From NCBI GenBank assembly GCA_040755095.1, contig JBFMBH010000006.1, positions 1,290 to 65,289 of the forward strand: a stretch of DNA of 64,000 nucleotides, in the 5' to 3' direction. Below, in pieces: positions 14,221-31,635 of the stretch (within the stretch, counting starts at the first letter, position 1; every line of letters begins with the position of its first letter). The translations under genes and the position numbers were made by a program. Origin of the DNA: Thermodesulfobacteriota bacterium. GTDB taxonomy: Bacteria; Desulfobacterota; Desulfobulbia; Desulfobulbales; JBFMBH01. The notes under the pieces were generated by a model that ran no database searches, was not told where the DNA came from, and was given only the letters and a program-made list of their open reading frames with translations.

Positions 14221-15948
14221 TCAGGCCGCGGGCAGGGCCGGCCGCCCCCCATGCACCTTGAGATAGACCTCACACCTCTGGCAGTTGCTGATCTTGTCGT
14301 GGAAGGAGCCCTGCTCCTTGCCCCCGCACAGAGTGCCGGTGACCATCCAGCAGCTGTCGCCGTGACGGGGGTACGCCGGGCAGCCGTCCCGGCGCTCGGG
14401 CGGGCAGTTCTTGATGCTCCAGCACTGCACGGCACCAGCCGTGTCGGCGCCACGGGGTGGCACGCGGGGAGCGGCCGCCCCCACCTCCTGCTCGCGACCC
14501 GCACCGGCTGACCCGCCGACCAGGGCCACCAGCTCCTGCACCACCTCGTGGATCCCCAGGGCCTGGGAATTGAGCTCCGCGGCGACGCTGGCCGACTCTT
14601 CACCCGAGGCCGCCAGGCGCTGGGTGGCGGTGTCGATGTGGGCGATCGCCTCGTTGACCTGCTGGATGCCCTGGGCCTGCTCGTTGGTGGCCAAGCTGAT
14701 CTCACCCACCAGGGCCGCCACCCGGCCGGCCCGATCCACCAGCTCGTCGATGGCCTCGCCGGTGGCTGTCACCAGGACCCGGCCGTCCGCCACCTTCTGG
14801 GAGGTCCCGGAGATGAGGTCAGCGGTGCTTCTGGCCGCCTCCGCAGCCCGCATCGCCAGGTTGCGCACCTCGTCCGCCACCACCGCGAAGCCCGCGCCGG
14901 CCTCCCCGGCCCGGGCAGCCTCCACCGCGGCGTTGAGGGCCAGGAGGTTGGTCTGGAAGGCGATCTCGTCGATGGTCTTGACAATTTTGGAGGTCTCATC
15001 GCTGGCCTTGGAGATCTCGGCCATGGACTGGGTGAGGTCCTGCATGGAGGAGGCCGCCTTGTCCATGGCCTGACCGGCGTCCCGCATGAGGGCGTGAGCC
15101 TGGGTGGCGTTGTCCGCGTTCTGCCGCACCATGGAGGACATCTCCTCCAGGGCCGCCGAGGTCTGCTCCAGGGCCGCCGCCTGCTCCACCGCAGCCTCGG
15201 CCAGGCTGTGGCTGGTGCCGGATAGTTGGCCGGCGGTGGTGGCCAGCTGGCCGGAATTGCCGGTGAGATCGGCGACCGCCCGCCGCACCGGCCGGACGAT
15301 TCCTCGGCCCAGAACAAGGGCCAAGGCGATGCCAGCCACCAGGCTGGCCAGGCCGGTCGCCGAGACCCCCAGGCGGGCCGCATCGCTCGCCGACAAGGCC
15401 AGCTGCGCCTTCTCCGTAGAAACGGCGGCATTGGCCTCCTTCAGCCGGCCCATCCGGGCGGCGAAGGCCACACCCGCCTCCTCCAGACGGTCCGCCTGGC
15501 TGGCCACCACCTGGGCGTTGCCCTGGCGCACCAATGGCCAAAGGGCCTGGGCGGCCTGGTTGAAGGCATCGCGCTCTTTGGCCGCCTCGGCGAGCATCAG
15601 CGGCCAGCCCGCGGCCACCAAGTCGGGATCAGACTGCACCGCCGCAGCGATCTCACCCAGCAGCCGGTCCACCTCCTGCCCCAGCTGGGCAAAGGTCTCC
15701 GGATAGCGCTCCTCCCGGTGGACGACGAAGAGCAGGGCCGTCGCCTCCTGGGCCTTCATCTGGGTGGTGAGATTCCCCACCGCCAGGCTGACGGGCAGGT
15801 GCACGGCGCTCATGTCCTGCACCTCGATGGCCACATTCCGGGAGGCCCACCAGGCGATCCCCCCCACCAGGACAGAAAGAAGAATCATCAAGCCAAAACC
15901 GGCGCTCAACCGCCTGCCCACCGTCCACTGCCTCATCGCCATCTCCAT
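14221..15948 (-). CDS. Methyl-accepting chemotaxis protein with a periplasmic helical sensor and a C-terminal Cys-rich (two-CW-like) domain
   Basis: TM1 '[18 protein letters not shown]', TM2 '[16 protein letters not shown]', signalling hairpin '[40 protein letters not shown]'. C-terminus '[43 protein letters not shown]'. Alternative start is ATG 15936 (GGAG 6 nt upstream). Confidence 0.9.
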
Positions 15949-16319
15949 GGTTCGGTTGCATGTGACAGGGCACCACGCGCGACGCCCTGGCCTCCAGGCC
16001 CTTCCTGACGGCCCATCGCCTCAGTGTAGGGAAACCGTCCTCGTCCGTCAAGGGAGCTATCAGGGCAGCGGCGGAGAATCCAGGCTGATTCCTCAAGTGA
16101 TCATGAGCAGTTACTGCTGGGAGGGCCATCCGGACCGCGCCGGTGCTCAGCGCGAATAGCGGGGCAGGCAGCCCGACCCGAGGGGCGTCCCCAGCGGCCT
16201 CCGAGCGAGAACTTTTTGTCCCATACTCCGGCAAGCCGCGCCCTTGACTGTTGTCAAACCGGGTCGGCTGTGTTAAAGAAGGGGTCTTTCCGGTCCCGCT
16301 TCGGGTGGCCGGATCGTCC

Positions 16320-16395
16320 GGCGGCGTAGCCAAGTGGCCAAGGCAGCGGTCTGCAAAACCGTTATTCGGCGGTTCAAATCCGCCCGCCGCCTCCA
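16320..16395 (+). tRNA. tRNA-Cys (anticodon GCA)
   Basis: GGCGGCGTAGCCAAGTGGCCAAGGCAGCGGTCTGCAAAACCGTTATTCGGCGGTTCAAATCCGCCCGCCGCCTCCA. Anticodon loop CTGCAAA, discriminator U73 (typical of Cys), encoded CCA. Confidence 0.95.
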
Positions 16396-16406
16396 GATAC
16401 GCAAAA

Positions 16407-16439
16407 GGGGCTGAACGGCGATCCGTTCAGCCCCTTTTT
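16407..16439 (+). terminator. Rho-independent terminator after tRNA-Cys, possibly bidirectional
   Basis: GGGGCTGAACGG-CGAT-CCGTTCAGCCCC (12-bp perfect stem) followed by TTTTT. It is preceded by AAAA, so the minus strand also reads stem plus TTTT. It lies about 180 nt beyond the nuoN stop. Confidence 0.85.
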
Positions 16440-16614
16440 GCTGTCCCTCTTCCCCGCCCGCCCCCCACGCCAATCTCGCAAAGGGGCCTCACCCCCAGGA
16501 AAAACTCTGCAGGGGCTGCCCGTCGCGCCGCGACAGGCCAGCCCCTGTGTGCCTCCCCGACCGCGCCCGACCGAGCGGGCGCCCCCCCTTCTGCCCGGCC
16601 GCCGGTATTCCGGC

Positions 16615-18036
16615 CTACAGCATGCCCTTCATGGCGGTGGCCGCCATGTCCACCAGACGCTGGGGCAGGAGGCCCATGACGACGATGAGCGCCATGAGGC
16701 CGTAGGACAGCACCCGGGTCAGCCCATCCACCGCCACCGCCGGCCGGTCATTGGCGTCCTTGGTGTAGGACACCCGGACCACGGACAGGTAGTAGTAGAT
16801 GGAGATGGCGGTGTTGATGGCCGCGCAGACAACCAGCCACAGATAGCCCTCCTGCAAGGCGTTATAGAGGAGCATGAACTTGCCCATGAAGCCGACGAAG
16901 GGCGGGATACCCGCCAGGGCAAACATGCCCACCGCCAGGGTCAAGGCCAGGATCGGCGAACGCTGGTGCAGGCCCTCCAGATCCTCGATGGCCACGTTCT
17001 CGCCGTCCCGCGACACCTGGCAGATCACCAGGAAGCAGGCCAGGTTCATGATCAGGTAGCCGGCGATGTAGTAGATCGCGGCGCCGTAACCGGCCTCCCG
17101 CAGGGTGAGAATGCCGATCAGGACGTAGCCGGCATGCGCCACCGAGGAGAAGCCCAGCATCCTCTTGATGTCCTTTTGCACCAGGGCGATGAGATTGCCG
17201 TAGAACATCGACGCCACAGACAGGATCATGAGCATCTCGGTCAGTGCCCGGGCGTCGGGACCGGCCAAGGTGACCAGGCGGATGAGGAGGGCCACAGCGC
17301 CGAGCTTGGGCGCCGTGGCGCAGTAGGCCGCGGTCTCGTTGGAGGCGCCCTGGTAAACGTCCGGCACCCAGAACTGGAAGGGGAAGACAGCGAGCTTGAA
17401 GAAGAAGCCGCACAGGAGCATCCCCATGCCCACCACCGCCACCGGCTGGCCCATGAGGCTGCCCAGCTTGGGCATGATACCCGCCAGGTAGGTGGTCCCG
17501 GTGATGCCGAAGATGTAGCTCATGCCAAACAGCATCACGCCAGTAGCCACCGCACCAAAGAGGATGTATTTGACGCCCGCCTCCATCTGGGCGTGCAGGC
17601 CGGGGCGGTCGTCGCGCATCGGCACCAGCACGTACAGGGAATAGGACGAGACCTCCAGGGCGATGAAGATGGTCAACAGCTCCACCGAAGAGACCAGCAT
17701 CATCAGGCCCAGGGCGGACAGCACCATGAACATGTAGAACTCGGCGTGCACCTCCGGCCGCACCCCCTTGAGGCCCCGGCCGAAGATGATCACGGCTGCC
17801 AGGCCGATGGCCACCGCCAGCTTGAAGCCCTGGGAGAAGAGATCCACCCGGTAGGCGTCAAAAAAGAGGCTGCCTTCGAAGGAAAGACACGCCGCCACCG
17901 CCCCCACCCCCAGCACTGATCCGGCCAGGGCCAGGTTGCGGGCGGCCGCCGCCGCCGACCGGCCCAGGGAGACCAGAAAGAGGAGCAGGCAGAAGCCGAG
18001 ATAGTACAGTTCCGGGGCAAAGAGGATGGCCTTCAT
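16615..18036 (-). CDS. nuoN: NADH-quinone oxidoreductase subunit N
   Basis: 473 aa polytopic protein. 'FPFQFWVPDVYQGASNETAAYCATAPKLGA' and 'KRMLGFSSVAHAGY'. Last gene of the nuo cluster. Confidence 0.9.
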   Translation of the reverse strand: MKAILFAPELYYLGFCLLLFLVSLGRSAAAAARNLALAGSVLGVGAVAACLSFEGSLFFDAYRVDLFSQGFKLAVAIGLAAVIIFGRGLKGVRPEVHAEFYMFMVLSALGLMMLVSSVELLTIFIALEVSSYSLYVLVPMRDDRPGLHAQMEAGVKYILFGAVATGVMLFGMSYIFGITGTTYLAGIMPKLGSLMGQPVAVVGMGMLLCGFFFKLAVFPFQFWVPDVYQGASNETAAYCATAPKLGAVALLIRLVTLAGPDARALTEMLMILSVASMFYGNLIALVQKDIKRMLGFSSVAHAGYVLIGILTLREAGYGAAIYYIAGYLIMNLACFLVICQVSRDGENVAIEDLEGLHQRSPILALTLAVGMFALAGIPPFVGFMGKFMLLYNALQEGYLWLVVCAAINTAISIYYYLSVVRVSYTKDANDRPAVAVDGLTRVLSYGLMALIVVMGLLPQRLVDMAATAMKGML

Positions 18037-18087
18037 CGTGGGTCCTTGTCGTAGGCGTCTTGTTCGTCAGCCGGGCGTGATCGTCAT

Positions 18088-19614
18088 TCAGGGAATGGGC
18101 ACGCTCATCGCCACCTGGGAAAACTGCCCGGCCTGGACCTGGGCCACCAGGTGCTCGACGCTGGCGTGCATGACATTCATGAACGGCTCCGGAGAAAGCC
18201 CGATCCAGAGCATGAACACCAGGAGGGGGGCCAGGGTGACCATCTCCCGGAGGTTGAGGTCACGCAGGTGCTCCTCGTGGGGATGATCGCTCTCCGCACC
18301 CCAGACCACTTTCTGCAGAAGGCGCAGCATGTAGGCGGCCGCCAGCACGGCGCCCGGGATGGAGCAGGCGGCGATCAGCTTGTGGCTGGAGAACGCGCCG
18401 GCCAAAACCAGAAACTCGCCAACAAAGGAGTTGGTGCCTGGAAAGGCCAGGGAAGAAAGGGAGAAGAAGCCCAGGAACAGCACATAGACCGGCATCAACC
18501 GGCCGATAGCTGCAGCGGAGGACAGCTCCCGGGAATGGGTGCGCTCGTAGATCATGCCGACCAGGATAAAGAGAGCGCCGGTGGTGATGCCGTGATTGAT
18601 CATCTGGAGGATGGCGCCCTCGATCCCATTCTTGTTGAGGACAAAAATGCCCAGGGTGACAAAACCCATGTGCCCCACCGAAGAATAGGCGATCAGCTTC
18701 TTCATGTCGCTCTGGCCCAGAGCGGTAAGCCCGCCGTAGATGATGGCGATCACCGACAGCCAGAGGATGTACGGCATGAACAGGACAGCAGCCTCCGGCG
18801 TGATGGGCAGGCAGAAGCGGACAAAGCCGTACGTGCCCATCTTCAGCAGCACCGAGGCCAGAAGCACGGAGCCGGCGGTCGGCGCCTCCACGTGGGCGGC
18901 CGGCAGCCAGGTATGGAACGGGAACATCGGCACCTTGATGGCGAAGGCGAGGAAGAAGGCCAGGAACACCCAGAGCTGGAAGATCGGCGAGTAGCCCTTG
19001 CCCATCATCATCGGGATGGAGAAAGTGCCGGCCTCGAAGTAGAGGGCGATGATCGCCACCAGCATCAGCACCGATCCGGCCAGGGTGTACAAGAAGAACT
19101 TGACCGAGGCGTAGACCTTGCGGGGCCCGCCCCAGACCGCGATCAGGAGGTACATGGGGATGAGCATCGCTTCCCAGAGGATGTAGAAGAGTACGAAATC
19201 CAGGGCAGCGAATACCCCCACCATGGAGGTCTCCATGATGAGAAGGCAGATCATGAAATGCCGGATGCGGCGGGTGATGTAGCGCCAGGAGCAGAGCACG
19301 CACAGCGGCATGAGCAGGGTGGTCAGCAGGATGAGCAGCAGGCTGATCCCGTCCACCCCCAGGGTGTAGTTTACGTCCAGGGCCCGGATCCAGGGCAGAT
19401 GCTCGCCGAACTGGTACTGGGCGGTCCCGGTCTGGAAGTTGAAATAGAGCGGCAGGGAAAGGGCCGCGTTGGCGGCAGTCACCGCCAAGGTCCAATACTT
19501 GGAGCCCTCTTCGGAGCGGAGGACCAGAAGCACCGCCGCCCCCGCCAGGGGCAGGAAGATGAGCACCGACAGGATCGGCCAGCCCAGATGGTTCAGGATC
19601 AGAAAATCTTCCAT
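18088..19614 (-). CDS. nuoM: NADH-quinone oxidoreductase subunit M
   Basis: 508 aa. 'FPFHTWLPAAHVEAPTAGSVLLASVLLKMGTYG' and 'KKLIAYSSVGHMGFV'. Confidence 0.9.
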   Translation of the reverse strand: MEDFLILNHLGWPILSVLIFLPLAGAAVLLVLRSEEGSKYWTLAVTAANAALSLPLYFNFQTGTAQYQFGEHLPWIRALDVNYTLGVDGISLLLILLTTLLMPLCVLCSWRYITRRIRHFMICLLIMETSMVGVFAALDFVLFYILWEAMLIPMYLLIAVWGGPRKVYASVKFFLYTLAGSVLMLVAIIALYFEAGTFSIPMMMGKGYSPIFQLWVFLAFFLAFAIKVPMFPFHTWLPAAHVEAPTAGSVLLASVLLKMGTYGFVRFCLPITPEAAVLFMPYILWLSVIAIIYGGLTALGQSDMKKLIAYSSVGHMGFVTLGIFVLNKNGIEGAILQMINHGITTGALFILVGMIYERTHSRELSSAAAIGRLMPVYVLFLGFFSLSSLAFPGTNSFVGEFLVLAGAFSSHKLIAACSIPGAVLAAAYMLRLLQKVVWGAESDHPHEEHLRDLNLREMVTLAPLLVFMLWIGLSPEPFMNVMHASVEHLVAQVQAGQFSQVAMSVPIP

Positions 19615-19636
19615 GGCTTACCCCGGGAGAACGCTG

Positions 19637-21439
19637 TTAGGCGAAAACAAAGATCATGACGATGGCTGCCACACCGGCCGCTGCCATGAAGATGCCGTAC
19701 TGGAACTGACCCGTCTGGAGATGGCGCAGGTCAGAGCCCACCGACCGCACCCAGCGGGCGATGCCGTCGATGATCAGGTCGATGATGTTCCAGTCGAACC
19801 AGGAGGCGAAGCGGGCCTTGGCCATCAATGGAATGAGTCCCAGATACCGGTAGGCCTCACCCCAGGCGGTGTCCATACCCTGGATCGGCTTCGAGGCCAG
19901 CCACAGGAAGCCACGGCCCCCCATGCGGTAGAACCAGTCGAGGTCGATGGAGATCGTCGGCTCCGGGGCCAGCTTCTTGGTGAAGAGAAAGAAGCCCAGG
20001 GCCGTGAAGAGCAGGATGTTCAAGGTCTCCGACAGGTGGTAGGTGTCGTAGGGATGGTAGTTCGCCGCCACCTCGGGGTAGGGCAGCATATGGTAGAGGT
20101 ACGGGGTGTAGGAGCCGATGAAGATGCACAGGATCGAGGCAATGATCATGGCGCCATTCATGTTCCAGGGCGCCTCCCGGGCCTTGTTCCAGGTCTCTTC
20201 CGAACAGTTGTTCTTCCCGAACCAGATGAAGTACGGCACCTTGAGGCCGGTGTGGAGGAAGGTACCGGCTGAAGCCAGGGTAAGGCCGAAGGCCGCCCAC
20301 AGGATGTGGGACTGGAAAGCCCCCGCCACGATCATCGCCTTGGAGACAAAGCCCGAGAACAGGGGGAAGGCGGAGATCGACAGCCCGCCGATGAGGGTGA
20401 AGACAAAGGCCCAGGGCATGCGCTTATAGAGGCCGCCCAGCTCCGAAAACTTGGCGGTACCGGTGGCGTAGAGCACGGCGCCGGTGCCCATGAACAGGAG
20501 GCCCTTGTAGAGGATGTGGGCGAAGGCATGGGCACAGGTGCCGTTGATGGCCAGCTCGGTGCCGATACCGACCCCCGCCACCATGTAGCCGACCTGGGAG
20601 ATGATGTGATAGGCCAGCAGTCGCCGGGCGTCGTTCTCCAGCACCGCGTACACAACGCCGTAGAGGGCCATGGCCACGCCCAGGGGCACCAGGATATCCA
20701 TGCCGGCCATGGCTCGGGCCAGGGTGTACACCGCGGTCTTGGTGGTGAAGGCGCACATGAAGACCGAGCCGGAGACGGTGGCCTCGGCATACGCATCCGG
20801 CAGCCAGGCGTGCAGCGGCGGCACCGCGGCGTTGAGGATGAAGCCGATCATGATCAGGTAGGTGGCCAGTGTCGGGTTGTCCACCCCCGCGGGTCCAAAG
20901 AAGAGGTCGCCACCGGTCTCCTGGAAGCGGAGCACGAAACCGGCCAGGAGAATGAGCCCACCGGCGGTGTGGACCAGAAGGTACCGGTAGCCGGAGGCCA
21001 GGGCTTTGGCACCCCGCCGGTACCAGACCAGGAAGACCGAGGAGAAGGCCATGAGCTCCCAGAAGACAAAGAGCACCAGGTAGTCACCGCAGAAGACCAC
21101 ACCCAGGGAGCCGGCCACATACAGCCAGGCCGCCATATGCTGGCCGTCCTCCTCGACATTGAGGCCGTACAGGGTGCCGATCAGGCACATGAGGCTCATG
21201 ATATGGGCGAAGACCAGGGTCAGCCGGTCGACGCGGCCAAAGGTCAGGGTCCAGTTCAGGACCTGCACCACGCCATAGGTGCCCTGGGGCATGGCGTACT
21301 GGATGTAGAGGACGTCGGCGAAGGAGGCGATGGGGACCGCCATGAGGAAGATCTTCTTCACCGGCCTCGGCACCAGGGGCAGGAGCAGGGCGCCTGCCAC
21401 CATGATCAAGGTCGGGTGGATCCACAGATCACTTGTCAT
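19637..21439 (-). CDS. MrpD/NuoN-type antiporter-like subunit with a NuoL-like C-terminal lateral-helix/anchor extension (600 aa)
   Basis: 'PPLHAWLPDAYAEATVSGSVFMCAFTTKTAVY' and 'RRLLAYHIISQVGYMV'. The roughly 110-aa C-terminal tail '..NIIDLIIDGIARWVRSVGSDLRHLQTGQFQYGIFMAAAGVAAIVMIFVFA' resembles the NuoL HL helix plus terminal TM. The start overlaps the upstream 84-aa gene by 11 nt. Confidence 0.8.
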   Translation of the reverse strand: MTSDLWIHPTLIMVAGALLLPLVPRPVKKIFLMAVPIASFADVLYIQYAMPQGTYGVVQVLNWTLTFGRVDRLTLVFAHIMSLMCLIGTLYGLNVEEDGQHMAAWLYVAGSLGVVFCGDYLVLFVFWELMAFSSVFLVWYRRGAKALASGYRYLLVHTAGGLILLAGFVLRFQETGGDLFFGPAGVDNPTLATYLIMIGFILNAAVPPLHAWLPDAYAEATVSGSVFMCAFTTKTAVYTLARAMAGMDILVPLGVAMALYGVVYAVLENDARRLLAYHIISQVGYMVAGVGIGTELAINGTCAHAFAHILYKGLLFMGTGAVLYATGTAKFSELGGLYKRMPWAFVFTLIGGLSISAFPLFSGFVSKAMIVAGAFQSHILWAAFGLTLASAGTFLHTGLKVPYFIWFGKNNCSEETWNKAREAPWNMNGAMIIASILCIFIGSYTPYLYHMLPYPEVAANYHPYDTYHLSETLNILLFTALGFFLFTKKLAPEPTISIDLDWFYRMGGRGFLWLASKPIQGMDTAWGEAYRYLGLIPLMAKARFASWFDWNIIDLIIDGIARWVRSVGSDLRHLQTGQFQYGIFMAAAGVAAIVMIFVFA

Positions 21440-21683
21440 AGTAATCCTCCCGGGTCATGATGCCGAGATGGCCGAACCACTTGGAGACAAAGATGATGAG
21501 GGTGCAGGAGATGAAGCCGAACACCGCCCAGAATCCCGGCCAGTGCTCGGGGCTGGTGTGCGCGTGCTCCTTGCTCACAAAGACGGCATCCCACACCACC
21601 AGGAGTGCCAGCACGATGTAGCAGACCAGAACGACGGTCTTGAGCCGATCGCGCAGGAAGTCGATGAGCTTAACCAAGTCCAT
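21429..21683 (-). CDS. Small two-TM membrane protein of unknown function embedded in the nuo operon (84 aa)
   Basis: Predicted TMs 'TVVLVCYIVLALLVVWDAVFV' and 'GFWAVFGFISCTLIIFVSKWFG'. It overlaps the upstream gene by 14 nt and the downstream gene by 11 nt, which is a coupling geometry. I recognise no family. Confidence 0.65.
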   Translation of the reverse strand: MDLVKLIDFLRDRLKTVVLVCYIVLALLVVWDAVFVSKEHAHTSPEHWPGFWAVFGFISCTLIIFVSKWFGHLGIMTREDYYDK

Positions 21684-23157
21684 GGGTCACCGCCTTGATG
21701 AACTGCATGAAGAAGTCCGGATAGATACCCATAATGACCGAGATGATCGCCGTGGCGGTCAGCGGGATGACCATGGCCATCGGCGCCTCCTCCACCTTGT
21801 TGTAGACCACGCCGGCCGGCGGCGCGCCGAAGAAGGCCTTGAAGGCCACTGGCGCGAAGTAGCCGACGTTCAACAGGGTCGAGCTCAGGAGCACCAGGAG
21901 GATGCCGATCTGGTGCGCCTCCAAGGAGCCCATGAGCAGGTACCATTTGCTGATGAAGCCCGCCACTGGCGGCGCGCCGATCATGGACAGGGAAGCGATG
22001 GCGAAGGCGCCGAAGGTGAACGGCATGGCCCGGCCCAGGCCGCTCATCTCCGAGATCTGCTTCTTGTGGGTGGCCACGTAGATGGCGCCGGCGCAGAAGA
22101 ACAGCGTGATCTTGGAGAAGGCGTGATTGGCAATGTGGACGATGCCGCCCTCGATACCGGACGGCGTCAGGAGCGCCACGCCGAGGATGATGTAGGAGAG
22201 CTGGCTCACCGTGGAATAGGCCAGCCGCGCCTTGAGGTTGTCCTTGGACAGGGCGATGATCGAGGCGGTGAGGATGGTGAACGACACCAGATAGGCGGTG
22301 GGGATGCCCAGGTTGAGGCGGGTCATGGTGTCCACGCCGAACACGTAGAGCATCACCCGGGTGGTGGAGAAGACGCCGATCTTGACCACGGCCACCGCGT
22401 GGAGGAGGGCAGAGACCGGGGTAGGCGCCACCATCGCCGAAGGCAGCCAGTTGTGGAAGGGCATGACGCCGTTCTTGGCAAACCCGAAGATGCAGCAGAC
22501 GAACATGATGGTCACCAGGAGCGGGTTGGCATCCGCCGGGATGATGCCGGTGCGGATGTTGTCCGGGAACTCCAGGTGGCCGTTCATGACGTAGAGAAGC
22601 GCCATGGTGGGCAGGACCATCCCCTTGGCCGTGGTGGTCAGGTAGACGATGTACTTCTTGGCGCCTTCGTACGACTCGGTGTCCTGGTGATGCGCAACCA
22701 GGGGGTAGGTGCACACCGAGACGATCTCATAGAAGAGATACAGGGTGAACATGTTACCGGCCATGGCGCCACCCACCGCGCCAAAGAGGGCCAGGGCGAA
22801 GCAGGCGGAGAACCGGGTCTGGGCATGCTCGTGCAGGCCCCGCATGTAGCCCAGGGAGTACCACACCGCCAGCATCCACAGGAAGGAGGCCACCAGGGCG
22901 AAGACCATGCCGAAGGCGTCAACCCGGAAGGTCACCGACAGACCGGGCAGGATCTTGAACAGGGTGTACTCGACCCGGTTGCCGGCCCAGACAATGGGCA
23001 GGATGAAGTAGGCGATAATCCCGAACTTGACGACAGCGGCGGTAAAGTGCACCCCCTCCCGCAGGTTGCCGTTCCGGCGGGTCAGCAGGATGCCGATGAC
23101 GCCGGTCAAGGACGTCAGGAGGGCCCAGACGGGCGCGGGCGATACGACGGTCTCCAT
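21670..23157 (-). CDS. NuoL/MrpA-type antiporter-like subunit, core only, with no lateral helix (495 aa)
   Basis: 'MPFHNWLPSAMVAPTPVSALLHAVAVVKIGVF' (NuoL/MrpA-type motif) and 'KARLAYSTVSQLSYII'. The protein ends right after the last core TM. Strong SD GGAGGGAAGGGAG lies upstream of ATG 23157. It occupies the nuoL position after nuoK. Confidence 0.8.
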   Translation of the reverse strand: METVVSPAPVWALLTSLTGVIGILLTRRNGNLREGVHFTAAVVKFGIIAYFILPIVWAGNRVEYTLFKILPGLSVTFRVDAFGMVFALVASFLWMLAVWYSLGYMRGLHEHAQTRFSACFALALFGAVGGAMAGNMFTLYLFYEIVSVCTYPLVAHHQDTESYEGAKKYIVYLTTTAKGMVLPTMALLYVMNGHLEFPDNIRTGIIPADANPLLVTIMFVCCIFGFAKNGVMPFHNWLPSAMVAPTPVSALLHAVAVVKIGVFSTTRVMLYVFGVDTMTRLNLGIPTAYLVSFTILTASIIALSKDNLKARLAYSTVSQLSYIILGVALLTPSGIEGGIVHIANHAFSKITLFFCAGAIYVATHKKQISEMSGLGRAMPFTFGAFAIASLSMIGAPPVAGFISKWYLLMGSLEAHQIGILLVLLSSTLLNVGYFAPVAFKAFFGAPPAGVVYNKVEEAPMAMVIPLTATAIISVIMGIYPDFFMQFIKAVTHGLG

Positions 23158-23175
23158 AACGGTCTCCCTTCCCTC

Positions 23176-23496
23176 CTATCCTTTCAGCTCCGCCACATCG
23201 TCAACGACGATGGACTTGTAGTTGCGGTAGACGGCCAGGATGATCGACAGAGCGATGGCCGCCTCGGCGGCGGCGATGCCCATGATGAACAGGGTGAAGA
23301 CCTGACCGGACACCGGATCCGGCACCAGGAAGCGGTTGAAGGCCATGAAGTTGATCGAGGCGCCGGACAGGATCAGCTCCGAGGCGATGAGCATACCGAT
23401 CAGGGTGCGGCGGTGGATGATACCGTAGATGCCGATGGCAAACATGAAGGCACCCACGATGAGGTAGGTCTGCAGGTTGGCTGCGAGGGTCAGCAT
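23176..23496 (-). CDS. nuoK: NADH-quinone oxidoreductase subunit K
   Basis: 106 aa, 3 TM. 'LIGMLIASELILSGASINFMAF' and 'IAAAEAAIALSIILAVYR'. Confidence 0.9.
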   Translation of the reverse strand: MLTLAANLQTYLIVGAFMFAIGIYGIIHRRTLIGMLIASELILSGASINFMAFNRFLVPDPVSGQVFTLFIMGIAAAEAAIALSIILAVYRNYKSIVVDDVAELKG

Positions 23497-23497
23497 T

Positions 23498-24022
23498 TCA
23501 GGTCCCCCTTCCGGAACGGGCCAGCACCAGGGAGCCGACGATGGCCACCAGAAGCACCACCGAGATGAGCTCGAACACCATGCTGTAGCTGGTCAAGAGC
23601 TCCTGGCCAATGCGCTCAATGGAGCCGTCCCCCACCCGCTCCGCCGCCGCTGGCCAGTTGGTCAGGGCACCCAGCTGGGCCAGGCCCGCGAACAGGGCCA
23701 GGCCGGTCAGGCCCCCCAGGAGTGCGGTCACTGGCCCGGAGCCCGCCACATCCCTGGGCTGGGGGTCGGCAAGCATCACCGCGAAGACGATGGTGACACA
23801 GACCGCGCCGACATAGATCAGGATCTGCATGATCGACACGAAGGGGCTCTCCAGATAATAGTAGAGGCCGGCCACCCCCAGGAACGAGAGGGCCAGGCCG
23901 GCCACCGCGCGCACCAGGCGAGCTGAGCCGACGGCAATGATGGCGCCCACAACCGTCACCACCAGCACCCCCAAAAAGACGAGACCGGACATCCCGTCGG
24001 CCGAGAGCAGGACAGGGTTCAT
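23498..24022 (-). CDS. nuoJ: NADH-quinone oxidoreductase subunit J
   Basis: Start ATG 24022 ([10 protein letters not shown]..) overlaps the nuoI stop as ATGA. 'FVSIMQILIYVGAVCVTIVFAVML'. The track ORF start at 24259 lies inside nuoI. Confidence 0.85.
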   Translation of the reverse strand: MNPVLLSADGMSGLVFLGVLVVTVVGAIIAVGSARLVRAVAGLALSFLGVAGLYYYLESPFVSIMQILIYVGAVCVTIVFAVMLADPQPRDVAGSGPVTALLGGLTGLALFAGLAQLGALTNWPAAAERVGDGSIERIGQELLTSYSMVFELISVVLLVAIVGSLVLARSGRGT

Positions 24023-24462
24023 GGCTTGCGCTCCTTGAGCCTTTTCACCAGGTCGAAGACGAAGTCCTCCCGGCGTTGGCTGGCCAGGTTGTAGTCCATG
24101 GAGAAGCGGATCGCGCCGGGCTTGCAGTTCTCGACACACTGGCCGCACAGACTGCACTTGGTGAAGTCGAGGGTGTACTCGGTGAGCACCTTCTTCTTGG
24201 TGGCCTCGTCCTTGGCGCCCGAGACGCTGATGCAGTCCGAGGGACAGCCCTTCTGGCACAGGCCACAGACGATGCAGATGGACTCGCCGGTCTCCGGATC
24301 CGGGGTCAGCTCAATATGGCCCCGGAAGCGGGGCTTCATCTTGAGGCTCTGGTGGGGGTACTGGACCGTGACCACCGGCCCCACCATGTGCTTGAAGGTG
24401 ATGCCCAGCCCGACCGCCAGGCTGGTGGCGCCGTCGATGATCTCTTTGAAGTAGCCACTCAT
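24019..24462 (-). CDS. nuoI: NADH-quinone oxidoreductase subunit I (2x[4Fe-4S])
   Basis: '[12 protein letters not shown]' and '[12 protein letters not shown]'. ATG 24462 overlaps the nuoH stop (ATGA). Confidence 0.9.
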
Positions 24463-25454
24463 GACCCGAGCACCTTGAGCGTTGCAGCGGTGAGGAGGAG
24501 ATTCACCAGGGAGTAAGGGATCAGGATCTTCCACGACAGATTCAGGAGGCCATAAAAGGTGGTACGCGGGTACGTCCAGCGGACCCACATCACAACGTAG
24601 ATCAGGAAGTAAACCTTCAGCAGGAACCAGTGGATGCCGGGGAAGAGCCCGAAGGGGCACTGCCAGCCGCCCAGGAAGAGGATGACCGCCAGGGCGCAGC
24701 CGACAAAGACGTTGGCATACTCACCCAGGAAGAAGACACCGAAGCCCATGCCCGAGTATTCGGTGAAGGCGCCGGCCACCAGCTCGCTTTCCGCCTCCAC
24801 CATGTCGAAGGGGGCGCGGTTGGTCTCCGCCATGGAGCAGATGAAGAAGAGCAGAAAGGAGATCGGGGCAAGCGGCGTTTCCCAGATCCGGAACACATAC
24901 CACTGCAGGATGTTGGGCTGCTGGCGGACAATCTCGTTGAGGTTCATGGTACCGGTCACCATCACCATGGTGATGATGATGATGAGCATGGGGATCTCAT
25001 AGGCCAGGTTCTGCGAAACGGCGCGGGCCGCCGAGATGACAGCATATTTGTTGGCCGAGCCCCAGCCGGCCAGGAGCAGGCCCAGAACAGTCACCGAGGC
25101 GAAGGCCAGGATGAGGATGATACCGACGTTGATATCCCGGACCACCAGGCTCTCGGAGAAGGGCAGCACCACATAGGACATCACCGCCGGCGTCATGACC
25201 ATAAGCGGTGCCACCCGAAACAGGGTGGCGTCGGCATCCCGCGGTATGATGAGCTGCTTGCTCATGAGCTTGATGCCGTCGGCAAAGGACTGCAGGATGC
25301 CAAAGGGTCCCACCTCCTTGGGCCCGATCCGGACCTGGATGTGGCCGGCGACCTTGCGCTCCAGCCACACCAGAAAGGAGGCGTTCAGGGCGACAAAGGC
25401 CAGCACCACCACCAGGCCGCCGATCAACCAGGACAGTTCGAATTGCGAGCTCAT
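24459..25454 (-). CDS. nuoH: NADH-quinone oxidoreductase subunit H
   Basis: '[33 protein letters not shown]' and '[33 protein letters not shown]'. Start is ATG 25454 (MSSQFELSW). Confidence 0.9.
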
Positions 25455-25498
25455 GGGCAACGATACCCTCCGACCCCAGTGGGCAGGGCCTTGTAGGA

Positions 25499-26626
25499 CT
25501 AGCGATCGATCTCCGGGATGACCAGGTCGAGGCTGCCCATGATGGCGATGGCATCGGCAAGCAGGCAGCCCTGGCTGACCTCGGCAAAGAGACTCAGGTT
25601 GGAGAAGGACGGCGACCTGAGCTTCAGGCGGTATGGGGTGTTGGTGCCGTCGCTCACCAGATGGATGCCGAACTCGCCCCGCGCCGCCTCCACCGCACAA
25701 TAGATGTCGCCCTTGGGCGGCTTCAGGATCTTCGGCACCTTCTCGGCCTTGTAGGGTCCGTCCGGCAGCTTGTCCAGGGCCTGCTCGATGATGCGGCAGC
25801 TCTCCAGCATCTCGTCCATGCGCACCATGTAGCGGGCCATGGAGTCGCCTTCCGAGTAGATGGGCACGTTGAACTCGAAATCCTTGTACACCGAGTAGGG
25901 CTCGTTCTTCCGGACATCGTAGGAAACCCCGGAGCCCCGCAGCACCGGGCCGGTGGCCCCGTACTTGCGGCAGGTCTCAGGGCTGATGTAGCCAATGTCC
26001 TTGAGCCGCTTGATCAGAATGATGTTGGTGGTCACCAGCTTGTGGTACATGGGCACCCGGGCGCGCATCCGCTGCACGAACTCCCGGGTGCCGGCGATGA
26101 ATTCCTCGTCGATGTCGTTGTACACGCCGCCGAAGCGGAAGTAGCAGTAGGTGAGCCGGGCACCGGTCACCATCTCCAGAAGATCCAGAAGCCGCTCCCT
26201 GTCGTCAAAGGCGTAGAGGAGCGGGGTGAAGCCGCCCAGGTCCAGGACATAGGCCCCGAACCACAGCAGATGGCTGGAGATGCGGTTGAGCTCGGTGGTG
26301 ATCACCCGGATGTACTCGGCCCGGGGTGGCACCTCGATACCGGCGGCCCGCTCCACGGCGCAGACATGGCCGTGGTTGTAGGACAGGGCCGACAGGTAGT
26401 CCATCCGTGCCGGATTGGGCAGAAACTGGGCGTAGGTGCGGTTTTCACCCATCTTCTCGTGCATGCGATGGATATAGCCCAGGACCGGCTCGGCCTCGGC
26501 GATGTACTCGCCGTCCATCACCAGCTTGACCCGGAGCACGCCGTGGGTGCTCGGGTGCTGGGGACCGAGATTGAGGACAAAGGTCTCCTTCTGGAAGCTC
26601 GGAGTGACGTGGGCGAGGGGGCTCAT
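25499..26626 (-). CDS. nuoD: NADH-quinone oxidoreductase subunit D (49-kDa/NiFe-large-subunit-like)
   Basis: '[25 protein letters not shown]' and C-terminal '[13 protein letters not shown]'. ATGA overlap with the nuoC stop. Confidence 0.9.
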
Positions 26627-27072
26627 CCGTTCAGTCCTTTGAAATCCTTCCGGAGGGGATGGAAATCGGCATCCTCGGGCAGGAGCAGCGGCACCAGGTA
26701 GGGATGGCCCGCAAAGCGGATGCCGAAAAAGTCATGGGTCTCCCGCTCGTGCCAGTTGGCACCGGGGTAGATGCCGGAGATGCTGGGCACCTCCGGGTTG
26801 TCCCGGGGAGCCCGGGTGCGGATCACCACCCGGCAGGTCTCCTGGACATGGGCGAAGTGGTAGACCACCTCCATCTCCCCGGCGGCCAGCCAGTCCACCC
26901 CGCAGACATCCTCCAGGAAGAAGCCCAGCCCGTCCACCGCCTTGACCGCGGCGAGCACCTGGTCCACCGCCACCGCCGCGTCCACGTGGTAGCCCTTGGC
27001 CTTGTAATCGGTCTCCTGGACCCCTTCCGGGGTGATGGCCGCCAGGGCGGCCCGGGCCTTGTCGCGCAGCAT
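26623..27072 (-). CDS. nuoC: NADH-quinone oxidoreductase subunit C
   Basis: 'ISGIYPGANWHERETHDFFGIRFAGHP'. ATG 27072 lies 1 nt after the nuoB stop. The track start at 27309 overlaps nuoB. Confidence 0.85.
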   Translation of the reverse strand: MLRDKARAALAAITPEGVQETDYKAKGYHVDAAVAVDQVLAAVKAVDGLGFFLEDVCGVDWLAAGEMEVVYHFAHVQETCRVVIRTRAPRDNPEVPSISGIYPGANWHERETHDFFGIRFAGHPYLVPLLLPEDADFHPLRKDFKGLNG

Positions 27073-27073
27073 G

Positions 27074-27571
27074 TCAGACGGCCTCCACCCGGGGCCACCG
27101 GCGATGGCCCGTAATCTTCTCTTCCAGGGCCATGATGCCCTCCAGGAGGGCCTCTGGCCGCGGCGGGCAGCCAGGGATGTAGATATCCACCGGCAGGAAC
27201 TTGTCCGCCCCCTCAACGATGCCGTACTGGCCTTCGAAGACGAAGGGGCCACCCGAGATGGCGCAGTTGCCCATGGCGATGACCCACTTGGGCTCGGGCA
27301 TCTGGTCATAGAGGGTCTGGACGGCCGGTGCCATCTTGCGGCTGATGGTGCCGGCCACGATCATCACGTCCGCCTGCCGGGCGGAGGGGCGAAAAACCCC
27401 GGCCCCGAAACGGTCGATGTCGAAACGGCAGGCACCGGTGGCCATCATCTCGATGGCGCAGCAGGCAAGGCCAAAGGTCATAGGCCACAGGGAATTGGCC
27501 CGGCCGATGGCCAGGACCTTGTCCACAGCCGCGAACTGGATTACTGGCGAGTGTAGGTTTTGCGCTCCCAC
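27074..27571 (-). CDS. nuoB: NADH-quinone oxidoreductase subunit B
   Basis: '[17 protein letters not shown]', 'GNCAISGG' and '[11 protein letters not shown]' (N2 cluster ligands). GTG 27571 is preceded by AAGGGAG with a 7-nt spacer and overlaps the nuoA 3' end by 31 nt. Confidence 0.85.
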
Positions 27572-27933
27572 GTGAAAACTCCCTTCTTCCAGGCATAGAC
27601 GATGGCCAGGGACAGGATGCCGACGAAGATGACGATCTCCACCAGGGACCGGATCCCGGCGACCTCCTTGTAGGTCAGGGCCACCGGAAAGAGGTAAAGG
27701 ACGTCGACATCGAAGGCGATGAACATCAGGGCATACAGGTAGTAGACGATGCCGAAGCGGATCCAGGCGGGCCCGATGGGGTCCATGCCGCATTCGTAGA
27801 TCTGCAGCGTCCTGGGGCGGATGCCTCGGGGGGCCAGGAGGTTGGCGATGATGAAGGGGCCGATCGCAAAGACCAGCCCGCCCAGGAAGAAGGCCACCAC
27901 GAAGAGGTGGTCATAAAGAGCGGTTTGCTGCAC
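27541..27933 (-). CDS. nuoA: NADH-quinone oxidoreductase subunit A
   Basis: 'QIYECGMDP' and '[13 protein letters not shown]'. The track start GTG 27942 overlaps the SD AAGGAG (27947..27942) by 1 nt. The next in-frame GTG at 27933 has an 8-nt spacer, so I prefer it. Confidence 0.85.
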
Positions 27934-27983
27934 GGCGCGCACTCCTTGGAAAAGGGTTGTTCATGGGCGGCAGCGTTCCGGGT

Positions 27984-28012
27984 TTCTTAATGCATGCAAT
28001 CAGGGTTGTCAA
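27984..28012 (-). promoter_or_regulatory. Sigma70-like promoter of the nuo operon
   Basis: Minus strand TTGACA (28012..28007), 17-nt spacer, TAAGAA (27989..27984), about 50 nt upstream of the nuoA start. Confidence 0.5.
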
Positions 28013-28195: not shown

Positions 28196-28204
28196 TGGTA
28201 GAAT
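28196..28204 (+). promoter_or_regulatory. Extended -10 promoter (TGnTAGAAT) for the S8 protease gene
   Basis: TG (28196-97), G, TAGAAT (28199..28204). ATG 28212 sits 7 nt after the hexamer, consistent with a leaderless or near-leaderless mRNA. There is no SD before either ATG. Confidence 0.4.
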
Positions 28205-28211
28205 GCCGTCC

Positions 28212-29549: not shown

Positions 29550-29580
29550 GACCGGCATCCCTTCCTGAGGAGGCCCCTTA

Positions 29581-30927: not shown

Positions 30928-31081
30928 CCACCGCCGCCAACGGCCTTGCTCCTAACCACGGCCTGCTGCGGCATTCTTTATGGTTGACACCCTTCCCAGG
31001 CGCCGAATAGTCTTCCCACGTGGAGCAGCCACTCGTGTCAAGGCTCCGAACCGTCCCTCAATGAGGGTGCGCAGACCCGCC

Positions 31082-31562: not shown

Positions 31563-31635
31563 GGGCAGCGCGCCGCCCAGCGGTACCAGGAGAAGGAGGC
31601 AAGCCAGGGGGACGCCGTGGCGGGTTGCGAAGCCG

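What the first reader, a model, noticed from the sequence alone, without database searches (positions are those of the whole stretch)
19637..23157. nuoL replaced by three translationally coupled genes, implying four antiporter-like subunits
The canonical order is K-L-M-N. Here the order is K, a 495-aa protein, an 84-aa protein, a 600-aa protein, then M and N.

- The 495-aa protein carries the NuoL/MrpA-type motif 'WLPSAMVAPTPVSALLHA'. It stops right after the antiporter core and has no lateral helix.
- The 600-aa protein has an MrpD-type motif 'WLPDAYAEATVSGSVF..TTK'. It also has a ~110-aa tail ending '..DLRHLQTGQFQYGIFMAAAGVAAIVMIFVFA', which resembles the NuoL amphipathic helix plus terminal anchor TM.

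The membrane arm would then contain four antiporter-like subunits (these two plus NuoM and NuoN). The coupling rod would be donated by an Mrp-like subunit.

Complex I variants with a supernumerary antiporter-like subunit have been described in some lineages. I cannot tell from sequence alone whether this split-L/Mrp-hybrid arrangement is the same thing.
Basis: partly seen in the sequence, partly recalled or inferred. Interest (0 to 1): 0.6.

Follow-up and report, generated by a model that had tools for sequence, protein, structure and literature searches.

The report
Known four-pump "green" complex I operon
This is a real and widely conserved complex I gene cluster in which the usual NuoL subunit is replaced by two Mrp-like pump subunits plus a small 84-residue membrane protein, but the arrangement was already described in rhizobia as "green complex I", so it is not a new kind of system.

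Summary
On the minus strand the order is nuoA-B-C-D-H-I-J-K, a 495-aa protein, an 84-aa protein, a 600-aa protein, then nuoM and nuoN. There is no canonical nuoL and no nuoEFG.

- **495-aa protein:** a MrpA/NuoL-type 14-helix core with no lateral helix.
- **600-aa protein:** a MrpD/M/N-like TM8 motif plus a NuoL/NdhF-type tail (TM15, a lateral helix of about 74 residues, TM16) of canonical length.
- **84-aa protein:** two transmembrane helices, conserved in 79 of 81 related loci, and in no Pfam family.

The arrangement is not new. Both large proteins pass curated NCBIfam equivalog models. The same cassette, K-495-84-600-M-N, sits on Sinorhizobium pSymA. Yu et al. [quoted passage not shown] Relatives turned up in at least 599 stretches of a scan covering one genome per species.

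Details I did not find in the literature I could read:
- The three genes also occur in a stand-alone Mrp-type operon in Desulfotignum. There the last ~65 residues of the 600-aa homolog are swapped.
- nuoM plus the three genes moves as one four-gene distal module.
- The 600-aa family has an invariant Asn where the TM7 lysine normally sits.

The subunit order in the membrane remains inferred. Interest is low to moderate.

The parts
27541..27942 (-). nuoA (ORF 133 aa; start codon not verified)
   Evidence: PF00507, E=4.7e-30
27074..27793 (-). nuoB. The ORF is over-extended at its 5' end. The homolog in L083 is 171 aa.
   Evidence: PF01058, E=8.3e-31 at residues 111-223; L083 gene sizes
26623..27309 (-). 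nuoC (ORF probably over-extended at the 5' end)
   Evidence: PF00329, E=2.3e-36
25499..26626 (-). nuoD. It is followed directly by nuoH, with no nuoE, nuoF or nuoG.
   Evidence: PF00346, E=7.8e-96; no E/F/G tblastn hit anywhere in the 64-kb window
24459..25700 (-). nuoH (ORF over-extended; Pfam match at residues 96-405)
   Evidence: PF00146, E=1.6e-113
24019..24660 (-). nuoI (ORF over-extended; TIGR01971 match at residues 84-203)
23498..24259 (-). nuoJ (ORF over-extended; Pfam match at residues 105-246)
   Evidence: PF00499, E=9.5e-32
23176..23496 (-). nuoK
   Evidence: PF00420, E=5.8e-23
21670..23157 (-). 495-aa antiporter-like subunit. It is a MrpA-N/NuoL-type 14-TM core without TM15, lateral helix or TM16. 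Key residues: E144, K228, H253 and K259, H341/H345/K349, K404.
   Evidence: NF006236, 811 bits against a cutoff of 663; PF00361 and PF00662; best PDB sequence match is MbhH, 6cfw_H, 4.6e-46; residues
21429..21683 (-). 84-aa protein with two TM helices. It has an N-terminal amphipathic helix and the conserved motifs HAHT, PGFW and REDYYD. It overlaps both neighbouring genes.
   Evidence: Conserved at 83-87 aa in most of the 80 loci where it was found; no Pfam or NCBIfam family and no PDB relative
19637..21439 (-). 600-aa antiporter-like subunit. Key residues: E128, N203 (at the TM7 lysine position), K234, H304/H308/K312, K367.
   Evidence: NF009310, 727.6 bits against a cutoff of 564; best PDB sequence match is MbsH', 6u8y_X; N203 invariant in 81 of 81 sequences
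19640..20044 (-). C-terminal TM15 / lateral helix / TM16 of the 600-aa protein (residues 466-600). The lateral helix, residues 501-574, maps to 19718-19939.
   Evidence: AlphaFold2 secondary structure; hydrophobic moment; the tail profile aligns without gaps to NdhF and NuoL C-termini
18088..19614 (-). nuoM (E148, K227, K258, TM12 Glu E400)
   Evidence: TIGR01972, 618 bits
16615..18036 (-). nuoN
   Evidence: TIGR01770, 355 bits

Best explanation
The locus encodes a 13-gene, NuoEFG-less, complex I-type quinone oxidoreductase of the "green complex I" kind, from a Thermodesulfobacteriota MAG.

**Composition (shown).** The distal membrane module is NuoM plus a three-gene cassette that takes the place of NuoL. 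The cassette consists of a MrpA/NuoL-type pump core (495 aa), a small two-TM protein (84 aa), and an Mrp/Mbx-family core carrying a NuoL/NdhF-type TM15, lateral helix and TM16 (600 aa).

**Most likely arrangement (inferred).** The order along the membrane arm is NuoK/J, NuoN, NuoM, the 600-aa subunit, then the 495-aa subunit.
- The 600-aa subunit sits where NuoL normally sits.
- Its canonical-length lateral helix runs back over NuoM and NuoN to the usual anchor.
- The 495-aa subunit is an extra, terminal, L-type pump beyond the origin of the rod.
- The 84-aa protein probably tethers the 495-aa subunit to the 600-aa subunit.

**Function (inferred).**
- The chain of charged residues is thereby extended by one module. 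This allows up to one more H+ per 2 e- than canonical complex I, or equivalently a stronger pmf-driven reverse reaction.
- The electron donor is not NADH through an N-module encoded in cis. The published proposal for such enzymes in sulfate reducers is ferredoxin.
- The invariant Asn at the TM7 lysine position suggests the 600-aa subunit may act as a relay rather than a fully canonical pump.

**Confidence.** The stated 0.6 is for the whole statement, including the inferred subunit order. That the locus is a member of the described green-type four-pump complex I is about 0.9.
For: **Membership in the known variant**
- Both large proteins pass curated NCBIfam equivalog cutoffs.
- The 600-aa protein is about 53% identical, over 95% of its length, to proteins encoded on rhizobial symbiosis plasmids.
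- S. meliloti carries J-K-[MrpD family]-[84-aa hypothetical]-[antiporter subunit D]-M-N.
- Yu et al. 2022 (PMC9040806) describe green complex I as two MrpD-like subunits replacing NuoL.

**Conservation**
- The order B-C-D-H-I-J-K-495-84-600-M-N recurs in about 70 of 80 loci from Desulfobulbales, Desulfovibrionales and Verrucomicrobiota. EFG-like genes lie within 10 kb in only one non-rhizobial locus.

**Rod**
- AlphaFold2 predicts TM15, 74 residues of helix, and TM16. The helix is amphipathic.
- The tail profile hits NdhF (6tjv_F residues 528-606, E=1.7e-6, no gaps) and mycobacterial NuoL. It does not hit MrpA or MbsH'.
- The distance from the DxDWFYR motif to the C-terminus is 102-108 residues in all 75 loci scored. 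This includes the rhizobial protein, which Yu et al. use as the baseline without an insertion.

**Topology**
- When a second NuoM is added in Manganitrophus, the homolog of the 600-aa subunit gains a 26-aa insertion in its lateral helix. This implies that the rod spans the NuoM and NuoN subunits to a fixed anchor.
- The 495-aa protein has the terminal-type signature, His plus Lys on TM8 and the PF00662 domain. The 600-aa protein has the internal-type Lys on TM8.
- In the Desulfotignum Mrp context, only the distal part of the rod and the anchor (the last ~65 residues) are replaced, while residues 1-534 stay 70% identical.

**Module**
- In L015, L016 and L018, M, 495, 84 and 600 are about 58-71% identical to the window. 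The other subunits scored there (B, C, D, H, K, N) are 32-49% identical.
Against:
- By sequence, the closest solved relatives are MbhH/MbsH for the 495-aa protein and MbsH' for the 600-aa protein. In MBS, the subunit that bears the lateral helix (H') is the outer one and clamps H. That favours the opposite order.
- The tail is the same length (597 vs 600 aa in total) in the Mrp operon, which has three antiporter-like subunits. This fits just as well with a rod that always spans "self plus two", with the 495-aa subunit in the middle.
- pLDDT in the tail is only 42-72.
- The gap-free match to NdhF covers only residues ~520-598. The alignment to E. coli NuoL shows the segment after TM15 to be about 17 residues longer.
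- The electron donor and the H+/e- ratio are untested.
- N203 may mean that there is no fifth proton.
Confidence: 0.6

Rival explanations
1. Same complex but the opposite order, as in MBS: NuoK/J, NuoN, NuoM, the 495-aa subunit, then the 600-aa subunit. The 600-aa subunit is outermost. Its lateral helix clamps the 495-aa subunit and NuoM, and TM16 anchors at the NuoM/NuoN boundary.
For: - The best solved sequence relatives are MbhH/MbsH for the 495-aa protein and MbsH' for the 600-aa protein.
- The gene order H then H' in MBS mirrors 495 then 600 here. In MBS, the lateral helix and TM16 of H' hold H and H' together.
- In the Desulfotignum Mrp operon (MrpD, 495, 84, 600), a rod spanning "self plus two" would reach the canonical anchor next to MrpC.
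Against: - The distal rod and TM16 are NdhF/NuoL-like and gap-free. That argues for the canonical NuoN/NuoK environment rather than a NuoM/NuoN interface.
- The 26-aa rod insertion that accompanies a second NuoM in Manganitrophus would not be needed in this model.
- An L/MrpA-type core is terminal in every solved complex, but would be internal here.
Confidence: 0.25
2. The three genes encode a separate or only loosely attached Mrp-like cation/proton antiporter module. It is co-transcribed with nuo but is not an integral replacement for NuoL. It could, for example, convert the proton gradient into a Na+ gradient.
For: - The same cassette is part of a true Mrp-type operon in Desulfotignum.
- NCBI names both proteins as antiporter subunit D.
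Against: - The window has no MrpE, MrpF, MrpG or MrpB homologs and no canonical nuoL, so complex I would lack its rod and terminal subunit.
- The genes sit between nuoK and nuoM in about 70 of 80 loci.
- The rod of the nuo-context protein is NuoL/NdhF-type.
- The cassette moves together with nuoM.
Confidence: 0.05
3. The arrangement is an artefact: a frameshifted or fragmented nuoL, or a MAG misassembly.
For: None beyond the unusual gene count.
Against: - Each large ORF is a complete 14-TM antiporter-like protein with all key residues.
- The two are only distant paralogs of each other.
- The arrangement recurs in isolates, including S. meliloti, Hydrosulfovibrio, Desulfurivibrio, Desulfogranum and Desulforhopalus.
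Confidence: 0.01

Closest known systems
[quoted passage not shown]
   Same: The cassette is orthologous: K, a MrpD-family protein (~490 aa), an 84-aa protein, an "antiporter subunit D" (~590 aa), M, N. Identities to the window are 55%, 46%, 51% and 53% for the 495-aa, 84-aa, 600-aa and NuoM proteins. There are four antiporter-like subunits and the tail length is the same.
   Different: The rhizobial operon is rearranged (J...N before A...G) and includes nuoEFG. The window keeps the order A-D, H-K and has no nuoEFG. The host is an anaerobic Thermodesulfobacteriota MAG, not a nodule symbiont.
"2M" complex I of Nitrospira and others (Chadwick et al. 2018, ISME J 12:2668; cited)
   Same: It has a fourth antiporter-like subunit, with the proposed consequence of a fifth proton or easier reverse electron flow.
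   Different: In the 2M type, the extra subunit is a second NuoM and NuoL is kept, with a lateral-helix insertion of about 26 aa. Here there is one NuoM, no canonical NuoL, and no such insertion relative to the baseline.
Complex_I_3 of "Ca. Manganitrophaceae" (Yu et al. 2022, PMC9040806)
   Same: It has the same pair of MrpD-like subunits replacing NuoL.
   Different: It has two NuoM subunits, five pump subunits in total, and a 26-aa insertion in the rod of the homolog of the 600-aa subunit. The window has one NuoM and no insertion.
Mrp (Mnh/Pha) cation/proton antiporter, subunits MrpA and MrpD
   Same: The 495-aa core carries the MrpA-type His plus Lys on TM8. The whole-chain AlphaFold model of the 600-aa protein matches MrpA best (7qru_A, TM-score 0.73). 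The three-gene cassette occurs inside a real Mrp-type operon in Desulfotignum.
   Different: The window has no MrpE, F, G or B and no MrpA C-terminal domain. The rod sequence is NuoL/NdhF-like rather than MrpA-like.
MbsH and MbsH' of the archaeal membrane-bound sulfane reductase MBS (PDB 6U8Y), and MbhH of MBH (6CFW)
   Same: These are the best-scoring solved sequences for the 600-aa protein (MbsH') and the 495-aa protein (MbhH, then MbsH). They form a pair of adjacent genes in which only the second carries TM15, the lateral helix and TM16.
   Different: Identity is only about 22-25%. MBS has no NuoM or NuoN, its redox module attaches on the other side, and there is no small gene between H and H'.
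NdhF of cyanobacterial and chloroplast NDH-1
   Same: It gives the best match to the rod and anchor of the 600-aa protein. NDH-1 also lacks NuoEFG.
   Different: The NdhF core is a canonical L-type terminal subunit, and NDH-1 has three antiporter-like subunits.

Membership tests
Green complex I (two MrpD-like subunits replace NuoL) | No canonical NuoL; two Mrp-family antiporter-like genes between nuoK and nuoM | tested here: met
   The NuoL models score 204.7 and 146.5 bits, below their cutoff of 556. The proteins' own families, NF006236 and NF009310, score above their cutoffs.
Green complex I (two MrpD-like subunits replace NuoL) | Orthology and synteny with the rhizobial cassette | tested here: met
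   51-55% identity over more than 95% of the length. The same K-495-84-600-M-N order is found on S. meliloti plasmid CP050513.1.
Green complex I (two MrpD-like subunits replace NuoL) | Rearranged operon (nuoJ-N before nuoA-G) with nuoEFG present, as in rhizobia | tested here: not met
   The window has the order A-B-C-D-H-I-J-K-...-M-N and no E/F/G hit in 64 kb. This is an operon-level difference, not a difference in the membrane arm.
Green complex I (two MrpD-like subunits replace NuoL) | The four antiporter-like subunits assemble into one complex | not testable with these tools
   This needs BN-PAGE with mass spectrometry, or cryo-EM. No solved structure shares more than 25% identity.
2M complex I (Chadwick et al. 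2018) | A second NuoM copy in the operon | tested here: not met
   Only one ORF passes the NuoM models, and there is a single M in the synteny map.
2M complex I (Chadwick et al. 2018) | An insertion of about 26 aa in the lateral helix of the rod-bearing subunit | tested here: not met
   The tail is 102 aa, against 104 aa in the rhizobial baseline without an insertion. The alignment to NdhF is gap-free over 79 positions. The protein is collinear with the 615-position NuoL model.
Mrp cation/proton antiporter | Presence of MrpE, MrpF, MrpG, MrpB and the MrpA C-terminal domain | tested here: not met
   tblastn with the Desulfotignum MrpE, MrpF, MrpG and MbhD/E-MnhB proteins finds nothing in the window.
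Canonical NuoL / ND5 | A single polypeptide with an L-type core (His on TM8, PF00662) together with TM15, lateral helix and TM16 | tested here: not met
   The features are divided between two proteins. The L-type core is in the 495-aa protein and the rod and anchor are in the 600-aa protein.

The most novel reading that the evidence does not exclude
The 495/84/600 cassette, usually together with NuoM, is a portable distal pump module that has moved recently between stand-alone Mrp-type antiporters and complex I. The core identity between the two contexts is 64-70%. The module is fitted to each host complex by exchanging only the last ~65 residues of the 600-aa subunit, that is, the distal rod and the anchor helix. 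Within the module, the 600-aa subunit has an invariant Asn in place of the TM7 lysine and acts as a relay rather than a pump. The uncharacterised 84-aa protein is the clamp for the terminal subunit that the rod does not reach. I did not find any of these three points in the literature I could read. The two primary papers were not readable.
Probability: 0.35. Interest if true: 0.55.

Novelty: already known. Interest (0 to 1): 0.3.

Why it matters
Complex I variants with extra pump subunits bear on two open questions. One is how many protons can be moved per electron pair. The other is whether the lateral helix is a clamp or a coupling element.

This locus adds no new kind of enzyme. It does show that the "green" four-pump membrane arm is not a rhizobial curiosity. 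It is the common form in Desulfobulbales, several Desulfovibrionales and many Verrucomicrobiota, where it lacks the NADH-oxidising module.

The natural tail swap between the Mrp and Nuo contexts, and the invariant Lys-to-Asn change on TM7, are ready-made variants for testing models of long-range coupling. Cultured hosts exist, for example Sinorhizobium meliloti, Hydrosulfovibrio ferrireducens, Desulfurivibrio dismutans and Fundidesulfovibrio species.

Tried and rejected
[quoted passage not shown] 2018 could not be opened. Their content is taken second-hand from PMC9040806, PMC7415380 and PMC7419157.
- **Source contig.** The look-up of encoding contigs has no record of the exact 600-aa protein, so the context came from genome contigs instead.
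- **Tail against PDB.** phmmer with the tail alone found nothing. A 25-sequence tail profile was needed.
- **The 84-aa protein.** Pfam and NCBIfam scans found no family at E ≤ 0.001, and Pfam at E ≤ 10 gave only weak hits far below their cutoffs (best PF01578, E=0.0026, 17.8 bits against a cutoff of 29.9). The PDB search found nothing meaningful either.
- **Phrase searches** for a "fourth" or "additional" antiporter-like subunit returned no papers.
- **Multimer model not attempted.** I did not submit an artificial fusion.
- **Full phylogeny not built.** No MrpA or MrpD reference sequences were available offline. Bit scores against curated NCBIfam and PDB families served as a proxy.
- **Horizontal transfer not inferred from GC.** The nuo region is 62-65% GC against about 70% in the flanks. 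Other parts of the window are equally low, and genes for membrane proteins are typically less GC-rich.
- **Long plus-strand ORFs antisense to the operon** (for example 16438-17919 and 21640-23568) are treated as high-GC artefacts. The one tested has no Pfam match.

Full report
**1. What is in the sequence**

The window is high-GC, at 62-75%. On the minus strand, between 27942 and 16615, lies one compact operon:
- nuoA, nuoB, nuoC and nuoD
- then directly nuoH, nuoI, nuoJ and nuoK (23176-23496)
- a 495-aa ORF (21670-23157)
- an 84-aa ORF (21429-21683)
- a 600-aa ORF (19637-21439)
- nuoM (18088-19614) and nuoN (16615-18036)

Several upstream ORFs (B, C, H, I, J) are over-extended at their 5' ends because stop codons are rare in this GC range. 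The homologous operon in L083 gives the realistic sizes: A 139, B 171, C 175, D 372, H 333, I 148, J 179, K 108, then 498, 83, 598, 507 and 473 aa.

Other points about the operon:
- There is no nuoE, nuoF or nuoG anywhere in the 64 kb.
- The 495/84 and 84/600 reading frames overlap by 14 and 11 nt. A GGAGGA lies 7 nt before the 600-aa start. The claim of translational coupling is therefore reasonable.
- An exact copy of the 600-aa protein is on record as [quoted passage not shown].

**2. The three proteins**

*The 495-aa protein*
- It has PF00361 and also the NuoL/MrpA-specific N-terminal domain PF00662.
- It passes the NCBIfam equivalog NF006236 (811 bits, cutoff 663).
- Aligned with E. coli NuoL, NuoM and NuoN, it carries the full set of pump residues: E144 on TM5, K228 on TM7, H253 and K259 on TM8, H341/H345/K349 on TM11, and K404 on TM12. 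These are conserved in 73-74 of 74 homologs.
- His and Lys together on TM8 is the MrpA signature described in PMC7419157.
- It ends where NuoM and NuoN end, and matches only positions 13-469 of the 615-position NuoL model. It has no TM15, lateral helix or TM16.

*The 600-aa protein*
- It passes NF009310 (727.6 bits, cutoff 564).
- Its core is mixed. It has E128 on TM5 and K234 on TM8, the latter as in MrpD, NuoM and NuoN. It has the H304/H308/K312 motif on TM11, as in NuoL, and K367 on TM12.
- It has Asn203 exactly where NuoL K229, NuoM K234 and NuoN K217 lie. This Asn is invariant in 81 of 81 homologs, including the rhizobial and Mrp-context copies.
- Outside their own families, both large proteins score best against the Mbx/Mbh-type families (PRK08668, about 216 bits each). 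Among solved structures they score best against MbsH' (600-aa) and MbhH/MbsH (495-aa), ahead of NuoL, NuoM and NuoN. They belong to the Mrp/Mbh/Mbx side of the superfamily.

*The tail of the 600-aa protein*
- AlphaFold2 was run with 69 sequences and gave a mean pLDDT of 77. It predicts TM15 (466-485), a loop, helices at 501-533, 536-540 and 542-574 (74 residues, roughly 110 Å if continuous), and TM16 (578-599). pLDDT in the tail is only 42-72.
- The helix is amphipathic, with a hydrophobic moment of 0.37-0.68. The two TM helices give 0.11-0.15.
- A profile of 25 tails matches the C-termini of NdhF (6tjv_F residues 528-606, E=1.7e-6, no gaps) and of other NdhF proteins. It matches mycobacterial NuoL at E=1.3e-3. 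It does not match MrpA or MbsH'.
- The protein is collinear with whole NuoL models (residues 47-599 against positions 55-611 of 615).
- The distance from the conserved DxDWFYR motif to the C-terminus is 102 aa in the window and 104 aa in S. meliloti. It is 102-108 aa in all 75 loci scored.

*The 84-aa protein*
- It has an N-terminal amphipathic helix, two TM helices and a conserved acidic-aromatic C-terminus.
- It was found in 80 loci, at 83-87 aa in most of them, with the motifs HAHT, PGFW and REDYYD.
- It belongs to no Pfam or NCBIfam family and has no relative in the PDB.

**3. Distribution and context**

The 600-aa family is very large. All 8000 candidates scored had E ≤ 1e-20.

I mapped the window's subunits onto the 80 best loci:
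- About 70 loci have the order B-C-D-H-I-J-K-495-84-600-M-N. They come from Desulfobulbales, Desulfurivibrionaceae, Desulfocapsaceae, Desulfovibrionales (Fundidesulfovibrio, Hydrosulfovibrio), and many Verrucomicrobiota and Opitutales. Most of the rest are truncated contigs.
- Genes like nuoEFG lie within 10 kb in only one non-rhizobial locus (L035), and there on the opposite strand.

On Sinorhizobium meliloti plasmid CP050513.1 the annotated order is nuoJ, nuoK, "monovalent cation/H+ antiporter subunit D family protein", "hypothetical protein" (84 aa), "Na(+)/H(+) antiporter subunit D", nuoM, nuoN, then nuoA-G. Identities to the window are 55%, 46%, 51% and 53% for the 495-aa, 84-aa, 600-aa and NuoM proteins.

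**4. Comparison with what is published**

- Yu et al. 2022 (PMC9040806) list two known complex I types with a fourth pump subunit. One is the Nitrospira 2M type, which has an extra NuoM and an insertion in the NuoL lateral helix (Chadwick et al. 2018). [quoted passage not shown]
- The same paper reports that Manganitrophus combines both features, giving five pumps. There the rod-bearing MrpD2 gains a 26-aa insertion relative to the rhizobial protein.
- PMC7415380 summarises the rhizobial work. About 70 Alphaproteobacteria carry the green operon in addition to the standard 14-gene nuo operon (NUO14), and it is up-regulated in symbiosis.
- Genome papers on sulfate reducers note nuo operons without nuoEFG and propose ferredoxin as the donor (PMC4287179).

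The window is therefore an ortholog of the described green-type membrane arm, in the EFG-less operon form that is typical of anaerobes. No solved structure of this variant exists in the PDB copy searched. All hits are at most 25% identical.

**5. Additional findings**

*(a) The cassette also occurs in an Mrp operon*
- In three Desulfotignum loci (L050, L057, L073) the three genes are not in a nuo operon.
- In L050 and L057 they close a stand-alone Mrp-type operon: MrpE, MrpF, MrpG, a fused MbhD/MbhE/MnhB protein, MrpC, MrpD (506 aa), then 495, 84, 600. There is no redox module on either side. L073 is truncated on the upstream side.
- The 495-aa homolog there is 64% identical to the window's.
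- The 600-aa homolog is 70% identical over residues 1-534. Its last ~65 residues are unrelated and rich in Pro and Gly, though they still end in a TM helix.
- Only the distal rod and the anchor differ between the two contexts. This is what one expects if that segment contacts host-specific subunits.

*(b) nuoM moves with the cassette*
- In L015, L016 and L018 the order is K-M-495-84-600-N.
- There M, 495, 84 and 600 are about 58-71% identical to the window, whereas the other subunits scored (B, C, D, H, K, N) are 32-49% identical.
- The unit that is exchanged is thus NuoM plus the cassette. This corresponds to the distal membrane module (NuoM and NuoL) of canonical complex I; that correspondence rests on my own knowledge of complex I assembly.

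*(c) The invariant Asn at the TM7 lysine position of the 600-aa family*.

**6. How it probably works**

*Shown:* four antiporter-like subunits are encoded. One bears a canonical-length NuoL/NdhF-type rod. One is an L/MrpA-type core without a rod. No N-module is encoded in cis.

*Inferred, main model (about 0.55-0.6):*
- The order is NuoK/J, NuoN, NuoM, the 600-aa subunit, then the 495-aa subunit.
- The 600-aa subunit occupies the NuoL position. Its rod runs back over NuoM and NuoN.
- The 495-aa subunit is an added terminal pump, probably held in place by the 84-aa protein.

*Arguments for the main model:*
- The rod and anchor resemble those of NdhF and NuoL without gaps.
- Adding a NuoM in Manganitrophus costs one 26-aa extension of the rod.
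- Terminal subunits in solved complexes are the L/MrpA type, and internal ones carry Lys on TM8.
- The anchor segment is the part that changes with context.

*Rival model (about 0.25):* the order seen in MBS, with the 600-aa subunit outermost. It is supported by the sequence affinity to MbsH and MbsH' and by the equal tail length in the Mrp operon with three pump subunits.

*Functional consequences (inferred):*
- One additional translocated H+ per 2 e-, or a better driven reverse reaction from menaquinol to a low-potential acceptor, as argued for other four-pump enzymes.
- The TM7 Asn raises the alternative that the 600-aa subunit only relays charge.

**7. Verdict**

The arrangement is already described and widespread, and it is annotated by curated models, so the finding as given is not novel. 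The Mrp/Nuo cassette sharing with a swapped anchor, the four-gene distal module, the conserved 84-aa protein and the TM7 Asn may be new. I could not verify that against the two primary papers, which are not held.

Noticed in passing
L050:289-8084, L057:1743-9467, L073:3-2624 (Desulfotignum MAGs): The 495/84/600 cassette closes a stand-alone Mrp-type operon: MrpE, MrpF, MrpG, a fused MbhD/MbhE/MnhB protein, MrpC, MrpD, then the cassette. This would make an Mrp-like antiporter with three antiporter-like subunits and a split MrpA. The last ~65 residues of the 600-aa homolog are unrelated to the nuo-context tail.
   Followed up: partly
L015:6402-13235, L016, L018 (Desulfocapsa and Desulfobulbus MAGs): These loci have a variant gene order, K-M-495-84-600-N, and mosaic ancestry. 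M and the cassette are about 58-71% identical to the window, while the other subunits scored (B, C, D, H, K, N) are 32-49% identical. The MAG that carries L015 also has a second operon in the standard order (L061).
   Followed up: partly
window 20831-20833 (codon for N203 of the 600-aa protein): An invariant Asn replaces the TM7 lysine that is conserved in NuoL, NuoM, NuoN, MrpA and MrpD. It is Asn in 81 of 81 family members.
   Followed up: partly
window 14221-15948 (-): A methyl-accepting chemotaxis protein gene lies about 670 bp downstream of nuoN on the same strand. In L083 and L084, a 624-aa protein with dCache and MCP-like domains follows nuoN in a Betaproteobacteria-labelled operon. This could be a recurring link to a sensory protein, or coincidence.
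   Followed up: no
L035:18886-21686: This is the only non-rhizobial locus of the 80 with nuoE/F/G-like genes nearby. They lie about 7 kb downstream of the nuo operon, on the opposite strand, in a Verrucomicrobiia MAG.
   Followed up: no
window 16000-28000 against the flanks: The nuo operon is 62-65% GC, while the flanks are 70-73%. The regions at 38-40 kb and 58-64 kb are similarly low, so this is not clear evidence of horizontal transfer.
   Followed up: no
window 16438-17919 (+), 18151-19659 (+), 21640-23568 (+): Very long ORFs (493-642 aa) run antisense to nuoN, nuoM and the 495-aa gene. The one tested has no Pfam match. They are most likely artefacts of high GC content.
   Followed up: partly
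window 28203-37260: Upstream of the operon lie a subtilase (28203-29549, +), an FAD-dependent protein (29581-30927, +), a nucleotidyltransferase-domain ORF, a Mur-ligase-family protein (32557-34569, -), and a hybrid GAF/PAS histidine kinase with a receiver domain (34084-37260, +). None looks like an electron-input module for the complex.
   Followed up: no
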